64,000 nucleotides of DNA, taken from a virus (lineage: Duplodnaviria > Heunggongvirae > Uroviricota > Caudoviricetes). The stretch lies in the IMG/VR virus record IMGVR_UViG_3300044796_000394. The stretch is one strand, 5' to 3'. The notes under the pieces were generated by a model. It had not been told where the DNA came from. It did no database searches and saw only the letters and a program-made list of their open reading frames with translations. Both the position numbers and the translations under genes were made by a program. Below, piece by piece: positions 15,083-61,548 of this stretch (position 1 is the first letter of the stretch; every line of letters begins with the position of its first letter).

Positions 15083-15349
15083 TCAATTAAAAGGGTTAGC
15101 TTCTTGTGGGGTTTCAATTCGCATTTTCTTACCATCGAGATCGTATTTGATACTGACTTGCTGTACTGGCAAAGTAGTTTCTTCACCGTCCAACATGCTC
15201 AATTCGTGTTCGATCTTCAACCAGTGGCAGCGGTCGTTGGGTTTAACTTTTAATTCCAAGTATTCCCCTGCATGAACCACGGTTACGTTACAAACGCCTT
15301 CTTCGGCATTATACATCGCACAATTCTTACAGATTTTCTTTTTTAACAT
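15083..15349 (-). CDS. small zinc-finger protein
   Basis: CKNC...CNV...C-H Cys cluster. Start trimmed to MLKKK to avoid overlap. Confidence 0.45.
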   Translation of the reverse strand: MLKKKICKNCAMYNAEEGVCNVTVVHAGEYLELKVKPNDRCHWLKIEHELSMLDGEETTLPVQQVSIKYDLDGKKMRIETPQEANPFN

Positions 15350-15497
15350 TTTTCTTCTTCTTTTTATCATCGGACAAAATTACGGGCTTTGGATACATTC
15401 TGCCTACTGATCCGCCGATAGGTCTGGCGAAGTTGGCAATATCCCCTGTACTTGTCATAGTTTCTTCGATGTTTTTTAACCATTCTCTAAAAGTCAT
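15327..15497 (-). CDS. small protein (56 aa) with N-terminal MTFREWLKNIEE motif
   Basis: Below the 60-aa cutoff of the ORF track. TAATG-coupled to the upstream gene. Paralogous N-terminus to the 39689 ORF (MMNFKEWLKINE). Confidence 0.5.
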   Translation of the reverse strand: MTFREWLKNIEETMTSTGDIANFARPIGGSVGRMYPKPVILSDDKKKKKNVKKENL

Positions 15498-15970
15498 TAC
15501 ATTCCTCCCATTGGTGGACCGCCGCCTCCGGTCGGACCAGCCAAAGTGTTACCCTGTGATTTCCATTGTACTCCACCGGAAGCCCCGGCGAAATCTGCTC
15601 CTTGATAATTAGGCGGTTCCATCAATTTCAGGAACGTATCACGTGTCATTGTGATTGATTTTTTGCCCAAATTATCAGCCGTGTCCAAATCTAATTCATC
15701 ATCAATATCGTCGCCATTACCATCTTTATCCAAAGCCGCATAGGGAATTGGTTTGATGGTAACCGTATGACTATCAAAGTCAGTGACGTAGAAAGCCGCC
15801 GGTTGGCGAATTAAGTGTCCGCCCAACTTAACATTGCTCAATGTGATCGGCATACCGAACCACAACTTTTTTGGAACTTTGAGTTGTTTTTTGATCGTAG
15901 AAACGTAGCTGTCAGGAGCTTCCGCTTTTTTCTCTACAAACAATTTAAACCCAACTAGCAAATTTGACAT
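15497..15970 (-). CDS. hypothetical protein
   Basis: 157-aa ORF with a Gly-rich C-terminus. Confidence 0.5.
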   Translation of the reverse strand: MSNLLVGFKLFVEKKAEAPDSYVSTIKKQLKVPKKLWFGMPITLSNVKLGGHLIRQPAAFYVTDFDSHTVTIKPIPYAALDKDGNGDDIDDELDLDTADNLGKKSITMTRDTFLKLMEPPNYQGADFAGASGGVQWKSQGNTLAGPTGGGGPPMGGM

Positions 15971-16002
15971 ACTCTATTTACACCTTGGGTTATAAATAGA
16001 CT

Positions 16003-17367
16003 ATGAAATTTAAGTCTTGGATTGCGGAAACTCTGAATTTTGATTCTCCTCAAAGGGCAGGCATGCAAACGCACCCTTTGGTTACAGGTGCTACAGTTGG
16101 TTTAGAGATAGAATTAATGACCCTCTCAATTCCTTACAAGGAATTTACACCTTTAATGTTAGCAAGGGCGTTATGGGATGCTGATGATTATAAATTTGAT
16201 GTTCAACAACGAATGAGATTGAATGCTGAATCTGAATATGATGATGATGAAGATTTGGATATGCGAGATTTGATTAACTGGGTTACGATGAATAAAAAAG
16301 AGGCTTACGATTATTTCAAACAACATCTTGAAAGTGGCCAGTTGAACTTAGGTAAAACCAGTACGGATTGGAAAGACGAAGTTGTTAAGTATTGGTCTAA
16401 ACACTTTATGAAAGCTATTGAGGCGGGAGGGTTTAAGGCTTTTTATGGTGCGCAATCTACGAAAGACTCTTGGGCTGTTGGCGATGATGGTCACGATACT
16501 ATGTACCATATCCCCATCTTGGAAATGAGGAGTTCCGTTATTCCTTATGCGGCGTTGCCAAATCTTCAAAAAGCGTTAACTGCGATTGCCGAAGTAATCA
16601 AAAACAATCCAGAAGATTTAATGGTTCAAAACAATACTGGTATCCACATTCACGTTGGTAATGCACGGACTGGCGATTTGAATGCCAAGGGCTGGCGTGG
16701 CGATCATATGGACATGTTTAGCCGGTTAGCCGCTGCCACTCATACGGACGAAGACAGCATTTGGGATACGATGTCAAAACACGATAGGGATTTTTCTCAA
16801 TTCGCTATGCTTAACAGACAGCAGGATTTTGAACAGACCCGGAGCGGGTACGGAAGTGCTCACAATGATATTATCAACCAACTGAACAACTTAAGGTACA
16901 AGAAAGAACCGACGATAACGGTCAGCAACAAAGACTTGTGGAACCGGGTCAAGCCCGACCGTAAGAGTGGAACAAGTGTCGTTTCAGAGCATCCGACAGT
17001 AGAATACCGACACTTTACATCGCAGGTGTTGATGGAGGCTGATGGCGTAGAAAAGATTATGGCGTGGATCAAGTATTTCGTTGATAATGCCGCTTCGCAA
17101 GTCAATAAAAATAGGATCAAGTTTGAGAATGACGAAGAGCGTATTATTCTGACGAAGTTGCCAAAGGATATGGTAAGAATTGACTTCCAAGACAAAGGAT
17201 CAAAAGCTAGAATTCCGCAACCCGGTATGCCAAGGGATGCGTTGATGGCGACTCCCAAGAGTGGGGTACGGGATACCGATCAAGGGTTCAAGCATTGGTG
17301 GGATAGATTAACGTGGCAGCAAAAGGCTCAGTACAGAAAAGACAAGGGCAGACCGCCTCTTGTTTAA
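16003..17367 (+). CDS. Amidoligase_2-family enzyme (second paralog)
   Basis: VGLEIELM (E-x-E) and NNTGIHIHVGN (H-x-H). N-terminal MKFKSWIAE motif. Confidence 0.55.
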   Translation: MKFKSWIAETLNFDSPQRAGMQTHPLVTGATVGLEIELMTLSIPYKEFTPLMLARALWDADDYKFDVQQRMRLNAESEYDDDEDLDMRDLINWVTMNKKEAYDYFKQHLESGQLNLGKTSTDWKDEVVKYWSKHFMKAIEAGGFKAFYGAQSTKDSWAVGDDGHDTMYHIPILEMRSSVIPYAALPNLQKALTAIAEVIKNNPEDLMVQNNTGIHIHVGNARTGDLNAKGWRGDHMDMFSRLAAATHTDEDSIWDTMSKHDRDFSQFAMLNRQQDFEQTRSGYGSAHNDIINQLNNLRYKKEPTITVSNKDLWNRVKPDRKSGTSVVSEHPTVEYRHFTSQVLMEADGVEKIMAWIKYFVDNAASQVNKNRIKFENDEERIILTKLPKDMVRIDFQDKGSKARIPQPGMPRDALMATPKSGVRDTDQGFKHWWDRLTWQQKAQYRKDKGRPPLV

Positions 17368-17594
17368 AAGTCGCCACAACAAGGCTCAGATTCCATTTTC
17401 TTAATGGTTTCCAAGAGTATGCCGCCGTACGGATCAATATTACACGTAAACGAATCATTAACGTCAATGTTGTAGGCTTCTAGGAACAAATGATGTACAA
17501 GTATCTGCGCCAATGGCTCAGTAGACCACGGGCAGCATACCATCAAATCGTCCAATTGCTCAGTTACGGTAAAGGTATCTTCTTGTATTGTCAT
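17364..17594 (-). CDS. hypothetical protein
   Basis: 76-aa ORF. Confidence 0.4.
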   Translation of the reverse strand: MTIQEDTFTVTEQLDDLMVCCPWSTEPLAQILVHHLFLEAYNIDVNDSFTCNIDPYGGILLETIKKMESEPCCGDF

Positions 17595-17603
17595 TCAAGT
17601 AGT

Positions 17604-60216: not shown

Positions 60217-60240
60217 CATTTAGGTAATTTATGGTAGACT
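60213..60240 (+). promoter_or_regulatory. sigma-70-like promoter with extended -10
   Basis: TTGACA, 16-nt spacer, TGgTAGACT, then an AAGGAG ribosome-binding site. Confidence 0.55.
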
Positions 60241-60258
60241 TAATATAAGGAGTCTACC

Positions 60259-60864
60259 ATGAATACCGATGCCTTATTTGTTGTCGATCCTCAAAACGGT
60301 TTTTCAAAATTGTGTCCAAAAGAGTTGCCCGTAGAAGGGGCTTTGGACATCATTGCTCCGATTAACGAACTCCTTGAATTACCTTTTGCCCGCAAAGACA
60401 TGTCATTGGATTGGCACCCTGCCGATCACGACTCTTTCAAAATATATCCGCCTCATTGCGTCATGGACACCTTCGGCGCATCGCCTCTTAGTGGGTTGAA
60501 TACCCACAAGATTCATGTCATTTGGCGTAAGGGCTACGACAAAACCGGGATGGCATACAGTGCCGTCGATCAACACCCGTATCTGCCTCATATGTTCATT
60601 CATCAAGGTATCAAAAGAATTTTCTTTTGCGGCATTTGTACCAACATCTGTGTGATTGATACAGCATTAGGAATGATCCTTAATTGTCCGATGTATAAGG
60701 ATGTCGGACGACCTTTTTACGAAGTCTACATTGTAGAAGATGCTTCGGCGGGCATTGATATTCCCGCATTGGACATTGATCAAAAAGCCGCCAAAGCCAA
60801 AGGCATTGCCAATGGCATCAAATACATTACCGTGGCCGAAGTCAAGAAGATGGTTAAGGAGTAG
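60259..60864 (+). CDS. pncA: nicotinamidase (isochorismatase family)
   Basis: D-K-C triad (VVDPQNGF, WRKGYDK, CGICTNICV) and DWHPADH metal site. Confidence 0.75.
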   Translation: MNTDALFVVDPQNGFSKLCPKELPVEGALDIIAPINELLELPFARKDMSLDWHPADHDSFKIYPPHCVMDTFGASPLSGLNTHKIHVIWRKGYDKTGMAYSAVDQHPYLPHMFIHQGIKRIFFCGICTNICVIDTALGMILNCPMYKDVGRPFYEVYIVEDASAGIDIPALDIDQKAAKAKGIANGIKYITVAEVKKMVKE

Positions 60865-60866
60865 TC

Positions 60867-61052
60867 ATGGCTAAAAAGACTCAAACCAAACAAGAGCAAA
60901 TTTCGCAAGAAGAGCAGTATATCGCATTCCTTCAAAAGCGATTAGCTTCTGAGCATTACAAGGAAGTTACTTCAAAGGAAGACTACGCCAAGGAAAAGGC
61001 AAAGTATGAAAAGGCAAAGTTCAAATTGAAGATGTTGAAGGAACAGCGTTAA
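60867..61052 (+). CDS. small coiled-coil protein
   Basis: 61 aa, Lys/Glu-rich. Confidence 0.4.
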   Translation: MAKKTQTKQEQISQEEQYIAFLQKRLASEHYKEVTSKEDYAKEKAKYEKAKFKLKMLKEQR

Positions 61053-61548
61053 TAGAACCTACGATGTTTTCGATAATCTGCCGGGATTTCTGAAACAGTG
61101 AAATCAAACCCGAATGAAATTTCTTTGAAGATATTAACATCATCTTTTGAATTTCTTCATAAGCCAACCAGTCAATATGGGAAGTTTCCCAACTATGTCC
61201 GGAATGGGGACTGAAAGTGAATTCTGTTGGCACAACACCAATGAAATTGAAATACTTGAAGTTTCCAGAACTGAAAACATAAGCGGGAGTTAACTGGATT
61301 GCCCCTTCGTAACCCGTCTCTTCTTTCATTTCTTCTTTGGCACTTTCGGCGGGTTGCATTCCTCTTTGGATTGCGCCTCCAAGAGTGCCGTAGCAATTAC
61401 CCATATGAACCGATCCGGAACGCCACGCAAGACAAATCCGTTTCGTACTTGAACATATCGGAAGAATGCCGCTGGCCCCACCACCTTCACCAGCCCAAAA
61501 ACCGTCGTTATCGTAGTGAGATTCTATCCACATCTTAAATCTCTTCAT
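61021..61548 (-). CDS. Nudix hydrolase
   Basis: Nudix box GGAIQRGMQPAESAKEEMKEETGY (Gx5Ex7-K/R-EuxEExGu). N-terminal MKRFKMWIES. Confidence 0.65.
   Translation of the reverse strand: MKRFKMWIESHYDNDGFWAGEGGGASGILPICSSTKRICLAWRSGSVHMGNCYGTLGGAIQRGMQPAESAKEEMKEETGYEGAIQLTPAYVFSSGNFKYFNFIGVVPTEFTFSPHSGHSWETSHIDWLAYEEIQKMMLISSKKFHSGLISLFQKSRQIIENIVGSINAVPSTSSI

What the first reader, a model, noticed from the sequence alone, without database searches (positions are those of the whole stretch)
15327..61548. Recurrent N-terminal M-x-F-K-x-W-[LI]-x-E motif on unrelated proteins, resembling a T4-style capsid-targeting propeptide
At least seven otherwise unrelated proteins start with near-identical amphipathic N-termini:
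- MKFKSWIAE (amidoligase, 16003 +)
- MDFKLWLEY (PARP-like ART, 19960 +)
- MNFKLWLEA (323-aa protein, 23420 -)
- MKRFKMWIES (Nudix, 61548 -)
- MMNFKEWLKINE (44 aa, 39689 +)
- MTFREWLKNIEE (56 aa, 15497 -)
Looser relatives are MKIWNSLKAFF (metalloprotease, 57175), MKTFKTFREFVEA (23599 -) and MFKKFKEFVSLKEA (48022). T4 internal proteins carry an N-terminal capsid-targeting sequence, MKTYQEFIAE, cleaved by the prohead protease after L/I-x-x-E. The motifs here have the same length and amphipathic character and a Glu at the same position. The window also encodes a gp23-family capsid protein and a gp17-like terminase. Together this suggests a cargo of enzymes packaged into the head and injected with the DNA: an ADP-ribosyltransferase, an amidoligase, a Nudix hydrolase and a protease.
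Basis: partly seen in the sequence, partly recalled or inferred. Interest (0 to 1): 0.85.

Follow-up and report, generated by a model that had tools for sequence, protein, structure and literature searches.

The report
Capsid-targeting tags on huge-phage enzymes
About fourteen unrelated proteins of this 614-kb T4-like phage start with the same short peptide, which matches the tag phage T4 uses to load proteins into its head, so they are probably packed into the virion and injected with the DNA.

Summary
F-[KR]-x-W-[LI] occurs six times in about 20,600 residues of called ORFs, each time directly after the initiator Met. A wider pattern (Met, 0-3 residues, aromatic-x-x-aromatic-aliphatic, then Glu) marks about 14 genes.

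The constraint acts on the protein. Codon use in the tags equals genome-wide use, and homologues at 30-50% identity keep the tag while swapping W, F and Y.

The tag lines up with the T4 capsid-targeting sequence read from T4 itself (ipI MKTFKEF..., ipII/III MKTYQEFIAE). One protein family starts MNFKQWMENE in metagenomic phages and MKTYTEFLSE in Straboviridae isolates, at the same position.

The window comes from a 614-kb phage with a gp17-type terminase and a Gp23-family protein. Its closest complete relative, LR756511, has a T4-type portal, S77 prohead protease and Gp23, plus about 30 tagged genes. Around 80 metagenomic S77 protease genes, 7.3% of gene starts carry the tag, against 0.45% of internal Mets.

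The metalloprotease is a doubtful member. This is a diverged variant of a known mechanism, used at unusual scale on enzymes. Packaging, cleavage and injection remain inferred.

The parts
13504..14313 (+). 269-aa protein of unknown function with the N-terminal tag MDSFSRFIISE. A TAAATA box lies at 13494-13499, 4 nt before the ATG.
   Evidence: no Pfam or PHROG hit
15327..15497 (-). 56-aa IP-like small protein with the tag MTFREWLKNIEE. It is the second gene of an operon and has a Shine-Dalgarno-like gggagg.
15497..15970 (-). 157-aa protein. Possible member with a displaced motif (MSNLLVGFKLFVEKK). It heads the operon from a TAAATA box at 15975-15980.
   Evidence: it does not meet the generalised pattern, so it is listed as possible only
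15975..15998 (.). Two divergent TAAATA boxes (15975-15980 on the - strand, 15993-15998 on the + strand), each 4 nt from an ATG. They look like T4 late promoters. Similar boxes lie at 13494, 19008, 19946, 23605, 23633, 39679, 48012 and 61784.
   Evidence: association with tagged genes p = 3e-4
16003..17367 (+). 454-aa amidoligase-like protein with the tag MKFKSWIAE.
   Evidence: Pfam Amidoligase_2, E = 8e-4, below the cutoff. Homologues P0006 and P0008 carry PF12224. All homologues with a full N-terminus keep the tag, with F or Y in place of W.
18461..19003 (-). 180-aa GNAT-like protein with the tag MSFRLFIEAA. A TATATA box lies 4 nt upstream.
   Evidence: weak GNAT hits
19960..20856 (+). 298-aa PARP/Tpt1-like ADP-ribosyltransferase with the tag MDFKLWLE. 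The conserved domain starts at YHGT, residue 18.
   Evidence: Alignment A1. AF2 model pLDDT 84; residues 1-10 have pLDDT 51 and form a helix at 3-10. All top Foldseek PDB hits are PARP or Tpt1, E about 7e-3.
22449..23420 (-). 323-aa protein of unknown function with a GTG start and the tag (M)NFKLWLEA. It is the second gene of an operon.
23417..23599 (-). 60-aa small protein with the tag MKTFKTFREFVEA. Its first five residues (MKTFK), and seven of the first eight, match T4 IPI (MKTFKEFT...).
23644..24027 (+). 127-aa protein with the tag MLTWQDFLKIRE. A TAAATA box lies 5 nt upstream. The N-terminus resembles LR756511 MLTWTEFLEARQ, which heads a NADAR-domain protein.
39689..39823 (+). 44-aa small protein with the tag MMNFKEWLKINE. 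A TAAATA box lies 4 nt upstream.
39810..40184 (-). 124-aa weakly GNAT-like protein with the tag MNFKQYYLESE.
48022..48306 (+). 94-aa protein with the tag MFKKFKEFVSLKE. A TAAATA box lies 4 nt upstream.
61021..61548 (-). 175-aa Nudix hydrolase with the tag MKRFKMWIES. It is the second gene of an operon.
   Evidence: Pfam NUDIX 2.5e-7, above the cutoff; PHROG 1198
61548..61778 (-). 76-aa protein with the tag MLSSFRTWMEF. A TATATA box lies 5 nt upstream.
   Evidence: the same start was chosen by an independent gene caller on the identical Logan contig
57175..58593 (+). Doubtful member.
   Evidence: It does not fit the pattern. Pfam M4 is only E = 0.009. The LR756511 homologue, 44% identical and next to TerL, aligns from residue 23 and has no tag.
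29406..30359 (+). 317-aa Gp23-family capsid protein. It is short and is probably a vertex or paralogous capsid protein. It shows that the phage has a T4-type head.
   Evidence: Pfam Gp23 1.6e-30; PHROG 138; 32% identical to the LR756511 major capsid protein
49763..51427 (-). gp17-type large terminase.
   Evidence: PHROG 2, 8.9e-45; 41.6% identical to LR756511 and about 30% to T4-like isolates

Best explanation
The shared N-terminus is a capsid-targeting sequence of the T4 internal-protein type.

What the tag is. It is a short helix of 8-13 residues. Its core is Met, 1-3 residues, Phe, Lys/Arg, Glu/Gln/any, Trp/Phe/Tyr, Leu/Ile, and it ends in Glu.

Inferred mechanism.
1. The tagged genes are transcribed late from TAAATA boxes lying 4-8 nt before the ATG.
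2. The tag docks the protein onto the scaffolding core while the prohead assembles.
3. A gp21-type (Peptidase S77) prohead protease cuts after the Glu that ends the tag, freeing the cargo inside the shell.
4. The cargo leaves the head with the DNA and acts in the newly infected cell before any phage gene is expressed.

The cargo in this window includes a PARP-like ADP-ribosyltransferase, two GNAT-like acetyltransferases, a Nudix hydrolase, an amidoligase-like enzyme and several small IP-like proteins.

Shown here: the tag exists, it is found only at N-termini, it is constrained at the protein level, it corresponds position by position to the T4 CTS, the head genes are of T4 type, and the tag co-occurs with S77 proteases.

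Inferred: binding to the core, cleavage, packaging and injection.
For: 1. N-terminal restriction and statistics.
- 6 of 6 strict hits lie directly after the initiator Met.
- 13 of 95 gene starts fit the generalised pattern against 5 of 437 internal Mets, p = 3.6e-7.

2. Protein-level constraint.
- Codon use for F, K and E in 49 tags equals genome-wide use, and the aliphatic position uses at least 12 different codons.
- Amidoligase homologues at 31-49% identity start MKFKQFIEV, MKGFKKYLEG, MRDFRKFIEA, MKNFKRYFYE.
- ART homologues start MNFKLYLE, MDFSKWL, MRYKDFYY ahead of a conserved YHGT domain.

3. Match to T4.
- T4 ipI = MKTFKEFTS...ITE, and ipII/III = MKTYQEFIAE.
- Aligned on the first aromatic, the tags show T/N/S at -1, F at 0, K/R at +1, E/Q/D at +2, W/F/Y at +3, L/I/V/F at +4 and E at +5 or +6.
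- The literature says T4 CTS residues 4 and 7 drive targeting and residues 8 and 10 drive processing (PMC9026906).

4. Tag interchange. The DY(R/M)GxHxAP family starts MNFKQWMENE or MKFKLWLENE in IMG/VR contigs. It starts MKTYTEFLSE in Vibrio phage VH7D and MYSFSEFINLAE in Vibrio phage 1.081.O, both Straboviridae.

5. Lineage.
- The window has a gp17-type TerL and a Gp23-family protein.
- LR756511 has a T4 portal, an S77 protease (2.5e-27; 35% identical to T4 gp21) and Gp23.
- LR756511 has 36 tagged gene starts among 1035 against 19 among 3279 internal Mets, p = 6e-11. Many read MKTFxEW[LIM]E.

6. Co-occurrence with the protease.
- In 80 metagenomic loci around S77 proteases, 80 of 1092 gene starts are tagged against 23 of 5161 internal Mets (OR 17.7, p = 2e-41).
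- An ART homologue of the window protein (P0012, MDFSKWLTITE) lies 9 kb from such a protease on a 389-kb contig.

7. Breadth. An IMG/VR scan for M[KN]FKxW[LIMF]E gave at least 98 unique sites, of which 64 look like ORF starts. A codon-shuffled control gave 26 sites, of which 1 looks like an ORF start.

8. Late-promoter-like boxes head nearly all transcription units with tagged genes.

9. The cargo is hypervariable. None of the tagged window proteins has a homologue in LR756511, while 20 of 95 ORFs overall do. The T4 IP loci behave the same way (PMC3012670).
Against: - No virion proteomics or cleavage data exist for any phage carrying this variant.
- The source genome's own protease and scaffold were not seen. 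They are absent from the window and from 8.7 kb beyond its right end. They were also not among the 120 listed protease homologues or the 80 retrieved loci.
- Only about half of the window tags contain the canonical T4 site [LI]-x-E. The rest end aromatic-[LI]-E, so the cleavage rule would have to differ.
- T4 targeting experiments were done on IPIII only.
- T4 core proteins gp67, gp68, gp21 and gp22 lack the motif.
- Cyanophage P-RSM6 shows none among 47 head-region genes, so the tag is not a general property of T4-type heads.
- Tagged genes share an unusual promoter-to-ATG arrangement that could in principle add its own constraint.
Confidence: 0.75

Rival explanations
1. The tag sends these proteins to some other shared destination or partner. 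Candidates are a membrane-binding amphipathic helix, a dedicated chaperone, a timed degron, or another phage-built compartment. On this view the likeness to the T4 CTS is convergent.
For: The tag is a short amphipathic helix, with low confidence in the AF2 model. No packaging data exist. Some cargo, such as the amidoligase, has no obvious need to be injected. The spacing to the Glu differs from T4.
Against: - The tag matches T4 ipI and ipII/III position by position, including the MKT start.
- It swaps with a canonical MKTYxEF tag on one protein family in Straboviridae.
- It is 16-fold enriched at gene starts around S77 prohead proteases.
- It is too short and too charged to be a Sec or Tat signal peptide, as the sequences show directly.
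Confidence: 0.13
2. The conservation belongs to the mRNA. The 5' coding sequence would be a translation-initiation element for leaderless or near-leaderless late transcripts, and the peptide would be a by-product.
For: Ten of fourteen tagged genes have a TAAATA or TATATA box only 4-8 nt before the ATG and no Shine-Dalgarno sequence. The same arrangement recurs in LR756511 and in IMG/VR hits.
Against: - Synonymous codon use in the tags equals genome-wide use (F 67/33 vs 57/43, K 50/50 vs 47/53, E 71/29 vs 69/31).
- W, F and Y interchange, and the aliphatic site uses at least 12 codons.
- Tagged genes inside operons have a Shine-Dalgarno sequence or a GTG start (15497-, 23420-, 61548-) and still keep the tag.
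- Genes with the same box but no tag exist: 14332+, 24069-28532(-) and 44732-45136(-).
- T4 ip genes have ordinary leaders.
Confidence: 0.05
3. The shared N-termini are remnants of mobile promoter-plus-5'-end cassettes that shuffle genes by recombination, as proposed for T4-type hyperplastic regions. They would have no function as a peptide.
For: The cargo genes are hypervariable between related phages. They sit behind similar promoter boxes. Promoter-containing cassettes that mediate shuffling are described in T4-type phages (PMC2839356 and PMC4122927, seen in the list but not read).
Against: - Beyond the 6-nt box, the upstream and coding nucleotides differ between tags.
- The tag persists in orthologous families down to about 30% identity, with class-conserving substitutions.
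- The two roles do not exclude each other.
Confidence: 0.05
4. Chance, or an artefact of choosing start codons.
For: Start codons were chosen by a simple rule. For two genes (19960, 61778) an internal ATG was preferred.
Against: p = 3.6e-7 in the window, 6e-11 in LR756511 and 2e-41 around proteases, each against internal Met controls. The codon-shuffled control pattern gave 1 site at an ORF start against 64. Independent gene callers picked the same starts.
Confidence: 0.01

Closest known systems
Capsid targeting sequence (CTS) of phage T4 internal proteins IPI, IPII and IPIII
   Same: - It sits at the extreme N-terminus and is 10-19 residues long.
- It has the same residue pattern: M-K-T, aromatic, K/Q, E, aromatic, aliphatic, then Glu.
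- It is carried by otherwise unrelated, hypervariable proteins.
- The phage has a T4-type head (gp23, gp17) and, in relatives, an S77 protease.
- It is expressed from T4-late-like promoters.
   Different: - The second aromatic is mostly Trp.
- The Glu usually follows the aliphatic residue directly (W-L-E) instead of one residue later (F-I-A-E).
- Many tags lack one residue between the Met and the first aromatic.
- The cargo includes enzymes of 175-454 aa, not only small proteins.
- There are about 14 tagged genes in 64 kb here and about 30 in a related 595-kb genome, against three in T4.
- No experimental proof exists for this variant.
T4 Alt, an ADP-ribosyltransferase packaged in the head and injected
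   Same: An ADP-ribosyltransferase is delivered with the DNA, and its propeptides are removed by the prohead protease (PMC9026906).
   Different: The window enzyme has a PARP/Tpt1-like (H-Y-E type) fold. It is not an Alt homologue, and it carries an IP-type tag.
Propeptides of ejection and inner-body proteins in phiKZ, 201phi2-1 and SPN3US
   Same: Many head-internal proteins are processed after Glu by a diverged gp21-type protease and ejected into the host (PMC9026906, PMC5694885).
   Different: Those phages use an S/A/G-x-E site and long propeptides with no short shared N-terminal consensus. They are not T4-type in terminase or capsid sequence.
Polyvalent proteins and the phage P1 Dar system
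   Same: The same kinds of domain (ART, GNAT, zincin-like peptidase) are delivered in the virion for early counter-defence (PMC7824862; PMC9024508).
   Different: There the domains are fused into giant multidomain proteins or loaded through dedicated partner proteins. Here each domain is a separate small gene carrying its own tag.
Encapsulation peptides of bacterial microcompartments and cargo-loading peptides of encapsulins (from my own knowledge)
   Same: A short amphipathic helix on a flexible linker recruits unrelated enzymes into a protein shell.
   Different: The sequences and shells are unrelated, there is no proteolytic removal, and encapsulin peptides are usually C-terminal.

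Membership tests
T4-type capsid targeting sequence (CTS) | Located at the extreme N-terminus, directly after the initiator Met | tested here: met
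   All strict hits, and 13 of 95 gene starts against 5 of 437 internal Mets.
T4-type capsid targeting sequence (CTS) | Two aromatic residues three apart (T4 positions 4 and 7), reported as the determinants of targeting | tested here: met
   F at the first aromatic position in 45 of 49 tags, and W/F/Y three residues later. T4 ipI has F4 and F7; ipII/III have Y4 and F7. The rule is from PMC9026906. In the window the register is 3/6 or 4/7.
T4-type capsid targeting sequence (CTS) | An aliphatic residue after the second aromatic and a Glu that ends the propeptide (T4 positions 8 and 10; protease site L/I-x-E) | tested here: inconclusive
   The aliphatic residue is present in nearly all tags, and a Glu lies within 1-6 residues in 11 of 13. 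An exact [LI]-x-E site is present in about half (WIAE, KINE, NIEE, KIRE, SLKE, IISE). The others end W-L-E, W-I-E, F-I-E or W-M-E. Cleavage itself cannot be tested here.
T4-type capsid targeting sequence (CTS) | Carried by otherwise unrelated, rapidly changing proteins, with only the tag conserved | tested here: met
   The tagged proteins fall into different Pfam families or none. None of the tagged window proteins has a homologue in LR756511.
T4-type capsid targeting sequence (CTS) | The phage builds a T4-type prohead: gp23 capsid, gp20 portal, gp22 core and gp21 (S77) protease | tested here: inconclusive
   The window has a Gp23-family protein and a gp17-type TerL. Protease, portal and major capsid protein are shown in the relative LR756511 and on tag-bearing contigs. 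They were not found for the source genome itself.
T4-type capsid targeting sequence (CTS) | Physical incorporation into proheads and removal of the tag by the prohead protease | not testable with these tools
   Needs virion mass spectrometry or reporter fusions.
Sec/Tat signal peptide or lipoprotein signal | A hydrophobic h-region of at least 7-15 residues after a basic n-region, followed by a cleavage site | tested here: not met
   The tags alternate charged and aromatic residues (for example MKFKSWIAETLNFDSPQR) and have no hydrophobic stretch.
phiKZ-type head propeptides | S/A/G-x-E cleavage sites and a phiKZ-type capsid and protease | tested here: not met
   The residue two positions before the Glu is aromatic or aliphatic, not S, A or G. 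Capsid, portal and protease are of T4 type.

The most novel reading that the evidence does not exclude
Huge T4-related phages may use this tag as a general loading address. Dozens of different enzymes would then be packed into each head and injected as a ready-made toolkit: ADP-ribosyltransferase, acetyltransferases, Nudix, NADAR, amidoligase, a nucleotidyltransferase-like protein and others. About 30 genes are tagged in LR756511, and 14 in this window alone. They appear to be expressed from late promoters that abut the start codon, probably as leaderless mRNAs. If so, the injected proteome of uncultured phages could be read directly from sequence.
Probability: 0.55. Interest if true: 0.72.

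Novelty: new variant of a known kind. Interest (0 to 1): 0.62.

Why it matters
In T4 the CTS is known on three small internal proteins. Reviews only speculate that it lets T4-like phages load various proteins into the head.

If this tag works the same way, it gives a simple sequence rule that predicts which proteins uncultured T4-related phages, including 600-kb huge phages, inject with their DNA. Those proteins are the first line of host takeover and counter-defence, and they are otherwise invisible without virion proteomics.

It would also show that huge capsids carry an enzymatic cargo far larger and more varied than T4's. And it offers natural variants of the tag for T4-based protein-delivery engineering.

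Tried and rejected
- blastn of 31215-34469 against isolate phages found nothing.
- A TerL scan of IMG/VR gave only relatives at about 25% identity.
- I tried three ways to reach the source genome's head module, and none worked. One flank look-up failed on the start-codon call. The other gave 8.7 kb with no head genes and no tags. The protease search listed 120 of 1289 homologues, none from the 614,480-bp contig. The single metagenome scan returned 80 loci without it.
- tblastn of the ART against isolates found only two Stenotrophomonas jumbo phages, weakly.
- Literature searches for the motif strings, and for a CTS outside the T-even phages, found nothing beyond T4 reviews and one T4 engineering paper.
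- I rejected the metalloprotease (57175) as a member.
- I rejected T4 core proteins gp67, gp68, gp21 and gp22 as carriers of the motif.
- I rejected the idea that the tag is universal in T4-type phages, because cyanophage P-RSM6 has 0 of 47.
- The strict pattern was absent from N-termini in the first 41 kb of LR756511. The generalised pattern later found tags there.

Full report

Yes.

I called 95 non-overlapping ORFs covering 96% of the window. In their 20,609 residues the strict pattern F-[KR]-x-W-[LI] occurs six times. Every occurrence is at residue 3 or 4 after an initiator Met: 15497-, 16003+, 19960+, 23420- (GTG start), 39689+ and 61548-. It never occurs inside a protein. In all six-frame ORFs of at least 60 aa there is one extra hit, in an antisense ORF at 3314.

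I then used a wider rule: Met, 0-3 residues, aromatic-x-x-aromatic-[LIVMF]. It is met by 13 of 95 gene starts against 5 of 437 internal Met positions in the same proteins (p = 3.6e-7). Eleven of the 13 also have a Glu in the next six residues. The other two (59038+, 62297+) are probably chance.

Adding two members that the rule misses for trivial reasons gives about 14 tagged genes. These two are 23599- MKTFKTFREFVEA and 39810-40184(-) MNFKQYYLESE.
- 13504+ MDSFSRFIISE
- 18461-19003(-) MSFRLFIEAA
- 23644+ MLTWQDFLKIRE
- 39810-40184(-) MNFKQYYLESE
- 61548-61778(-) MLSSFRTWMEF

For the last one, an independent gene caller on an identical Logan contig chose the same start.

Its homologue in a related phage lacks the first 22 residues. 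I treat it as doubtful.

**2. What the carriers are**

| Gene | Assignment | Evidence |
|---|---|---|
| 61021-61548 | Nudix hydrolase | Pfam 2.5e-7, above cutoff |
| 16003-17367 | amidoligase-like | Pfam E = 8e-4, below cutoff, but homologues carry PF12224 |
| 18461-19003, 39810-40184 | GNAT-like | weak hits |
| 19960-20856 | PARP/Tpt1-like ART | no Pfam hit; structure, see below |

For 19960-20856, an AlphaFold model built on 13 homologues has pLDDT 84. Its best PDB matches are all PARP catalytic domains and Tpt1, at weak E-values of about 7e-3 but with a consistent result. In that model residues 1-10 form a short helix with pLDDT 51, ahead of the first strand of the domain (VLVYHGT).

The remaining carriers are proteins of 44 to 323 aa with no family assignment.

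**3. Where the window comes from**

Identical copies of two tagged proteins (P0001, P0009) lie on a JGI metagenome contig of 614,480 bp.

The window has a gp17-type large terminase at 49763-51427 and a short Gp23-family protein at 29406-30359 (Pfam 1.6e-30).

The closest public record is LR756511, an uncultured 595-kb phage, at 41.6% TerL identity. T4-like isolates follow at about 30%. Twenty of the 95 window ORFs have a homologue in LR756511.

**4. Protein or nucleotide constraint?**

Protein.
- I aligned 49 tags from the window and LR756511 on the first aromatic residue. Codon use for Phe, Lys and Glu matches genome-wide use: 67/33 vs 57/43, 50/50 vs 47/53, and 71/29 vs 69/31.
- The aliphatic position uses at least 12 different codons, and Trp, Phe and Tyr interchange.
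- Amidoligase homologues at 31-49% identity begin MKFKQFIEV, MKGFKKYLEG, MKGFRTFFEA, MRDFRKFIEA, MKNFKRYFYE and MKFSQYLEV.
- ART homologues begin MNFKLYLE, MDFSKWL, MRYKDFYY and MNYKDFY ahead of an invariant YHGT.
- Tagged genes that sit inside operons keep the tag even though they have a Shine-Dalgarno sequence or a GTG start.

**5. Comparison with T4, from sequence rather than memory**

I fetched the T4 ip genes. ipII and ipIII begin MKTYQEFIAE|A. ipI begins MKTFKEFTSTTTPVSTITE|A.

The tag profile relative to the first aromatic residue is as follows.

| Position | -1 | 0 | +1 | +2 | +3 | +4 | +5/+6 |
|---|---|---|---|---|---|---|---|
| Tags here | T/N/S/D | F (45 of 49) | K/R | E/Q/D | W/F/Y | L/F/V/I | E |
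| T4 ipI | T | F | K | E | F | T | S / T (Glu only at residue 19) |
| T4 ipII/III | T | Y | Q | E | F | I | A / E |

A review of the T4 work states that CTS residues 4 and 7 determine targeting and residues 8 and 10 determine processing. It also states that gp21 cuts after L/I-x-E (PMC9026906). Residues 4, 7 and 8 are exactly the conserved positions here.

In LR756511 many tags read MKTFxEW[LIM]E, in full register with T4.

**6. Direct link through one protein family**

A family with a conserved DY(R/M)GxHxAP start is annotated 'ParB C-terminal domain' in some records.
- In IMG/VR contigs it begins MNFKQWMENE-DY or MKFKLWLENE-DY.
- In Vibrio phage VH7D it begins MKTYTEFLSE-Y.
- In Vibrio phage 1.081.O it begins MYSFSEFINLAES-DY.

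Both Vibrio phages are Straboviridae, genus Schizotequatrovirus (alignment A2).

So the two tag flavours replace each other at the same place, and the conserved domain begins right after the Glu. VH7D has further proteins that start MKKFGEFLTE and MKQFNEFYQE.

**7. Co-occurrence with the T4-type head machinery**

In LR756511 the region next to TerL encodes:
- a T4 portal, with an intein;
- a Peptidase_S77 prohead protease (2.5e-27; 35% identical to T4 gp21, E = 2e-25);
- a putative scaffold;
- a 491-aa Gp23 (2.5e-86).

Two tagged genes follow immediately, each behind TAAATA plus 4 nt. One is a NADAR-domain protein (MLTWTEFLEARQ) and the other is a 1076-aa protein (MEFREWFRSAE).

Across the whole 595-kb genome, 36 of 1035 gene starts carry tag plus Glu, against 19 of 3279 internal Mets (p = 6e-11). 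That implies about 30 true members, scattered over the genome.

The protease belongs to a large clade. There are 1289 homologues, several of them on contigs of 586-669 kb.

I retrieved 80 metagenomic loci around such proteases. In them, 80 of 1092 gene starts are tagged against 23 of 5161 internal Mets (odds ratio 17.7, p = 2e-41). One 144-kb contig has eight tagged genes within 10 kb of the protease. One of those is the same MNFKQWLESGGGF gene found independently in the IMG/VR scan (L071 and L201). A homologue of the window ART (P0012, MDFSKWLTITE) lies 9 kb from the protease on a 389-kb contig.

**8. Breadth and controls**

- Of these, 64 look like true ORF starts: a long ORF downstream, a stop within 30 codons upstream, and no upstream ATG.
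- 21 have TAAATA within 20 nt upstream.

A control pattern with the same codons in shuffled order gave 26 unique sites. One looks like an ORF start and none has TAAATA.

The carriers in these hits are again diverse. They include ART-like proteins, a nucleotidyltransferase-like protein (by eye only, not run against Pfam), and large proteins of unknown function.

The tag is not universal in T4-type phages. Cyanophage P-RSM6 shows 0 of 47 genes tagged around its head module. T4 gp67, gp68, gp21 and gp22 lack it.

**9. Expression signal**

Ten of the 14 tagged genes have a TAAATA or TATATA box 4-8 nt before the ATG and no Shine-Dalgarno sequence. Three of the other four are downstream genes of operons headed by such a box. 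The association between box and tag has p = 3e-4.

The box resembles the T4 late promoter TATAAATA (from my own knowledge). Its distance from the ATG implies transcripts that start at or next to the start codon.

This fits late, assembly-time expression. It is only a consensus match, not evidence of function.

**10. Most likely mechanism**

The tag is a T4-type capsid-targeting sequence. It recruits the protein to the scaffolding core of the prohead. A gp21-type protease then removes it after the terminal Glu, and the freed cargo is ejected with the DNA.

I put this at about 0.75.

The weak points are these:
- There are no proteomic data.
- The source genome's own protease was not reached.
- About half the tags end aromatic-[LI]-E rather than [LI]-x-E. 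The protease of this clade would have to accept an aromatic residue two positions before the Glu, or cut at another site.

**11. Rivals**

| Rival | Confidence | Main argument against |
|---|---|---|
| Different shared destination or partner | 0.13 | position-by-position match to T4, and enrichment around proteases |
| mRNA-level initiation element | 0.05 | codon use, and tagged genes in operons |
| Inert recombination cassette | 0.05 | little nucleotide similarity, and class-conserving substitutions in orthologues |
| Chance | 0.01 | excluded by the controls |

**12. Novelty**

The mechanism is known from T4. A review even suggests that the CTS may let T4-like phages load varied proteins.

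I found no paper in the searchable library that describes this consensus, its use on enzymes, its spread in huge or environmental phages, or its link to S77 proteases. The library lacks most subscription journals, so earlier work on T-even IP loci may say more.

I class it as a new variant of a known kind, of moderate to high interest. Its main value is a sequence rule that predicts the injected proteome of uncultured T4-related phages.

Noticed in passing
window 13494-13499, 15975-15998, 19008-19013, 19946-19951, 23605-23610, 23633-23638, 39679-39684, 48012-48017, 61784-61789; also 14332+, 24069-28532(-), 44732-45136(-): TAAATA or TATATA boxes sit only 4-8 nt before ATG start codons that have no Shine-Dalgarno sequence. 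Other genes in the window do have GGAG-like sites. This looks like a T4-type late promoter abutting the start codon, which would give leaderless late mRNAs. The same arrangement recurs in LR756511 and in many IMG/VR hits.
   Followed up: partly
window 31215-34469: Two adjacent paralogous genes of about 530 aa match PHROG 200 ('lipoprotein'). They lie in a stretch with GC 0.47-0.53 against about 0.42 elsewhere. This may be a recent acquisition.
   Followed up: no
window 42351-44045 and 60259-61548: There is a set of NAD-related genes: an NAPRTase/Nampt-like gene, a nucleoside deoxyribosyltransferase, an isochorismatase-like gene and the tagged Nudix, plus the tagged ART at 19960. Together they suggest NAD+ salvage or manipulation during infection.
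   Followed up: no
window 20898-22397 and 44042-44732: Several proteins have very proline-rich N-termini (MAPPPGTPPIPGTPGPLGPFPP..., MNPPLPPLPPPPPFGPIGPYGPP...) and no family hit. The first lies between two tagged genes.
   Followed up: no
window 24069-28532 (-): A 1487-aa ORF has no Pfam or PHROG hit. It sits behind a TAAATA box, between the cluster of tagged genes and the Gp23-family gene. It may be a large virion protein.
   Followed up: no
L011:23485-26058 (LR756511): The T4-type portal gene of the related huge phage contains an intein splicing domain.
   Followed up: no
L201, L203, L207, L211, L213, L220, L225, L229, L247, L250; compare window 39689-39823 and 15327-15497: A recurrent family of tagged proteins of 60-80 aa lies a few kb from the S77 protease in many metagenomic T4-like phages. 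Its consensus is roughly M-x-F-x-x-W-L-x-(K/R)-x-E-N-(F/Y)-G-G-S-x-G-x-P-S. It may be a conserved internal or core protein.
   Followed up: partly
window 17604-18461 and 46605-48014: A GT9 heptosyltransferase-like gene and a bifunctional PfkB kinase/cytidylyltransferase (HldE-like) gene suggest phage-encoded heptose activation and transfer.
   Followed up: no
window 40181-40843 (-) and 49322-49762 (-): A protein with a Tn7 TnsA-like N-terminal domain, conserved in LR756511 at 49% identity, and a cysteine dioxygenase-like protein next to the terminase.
   Followed up: no
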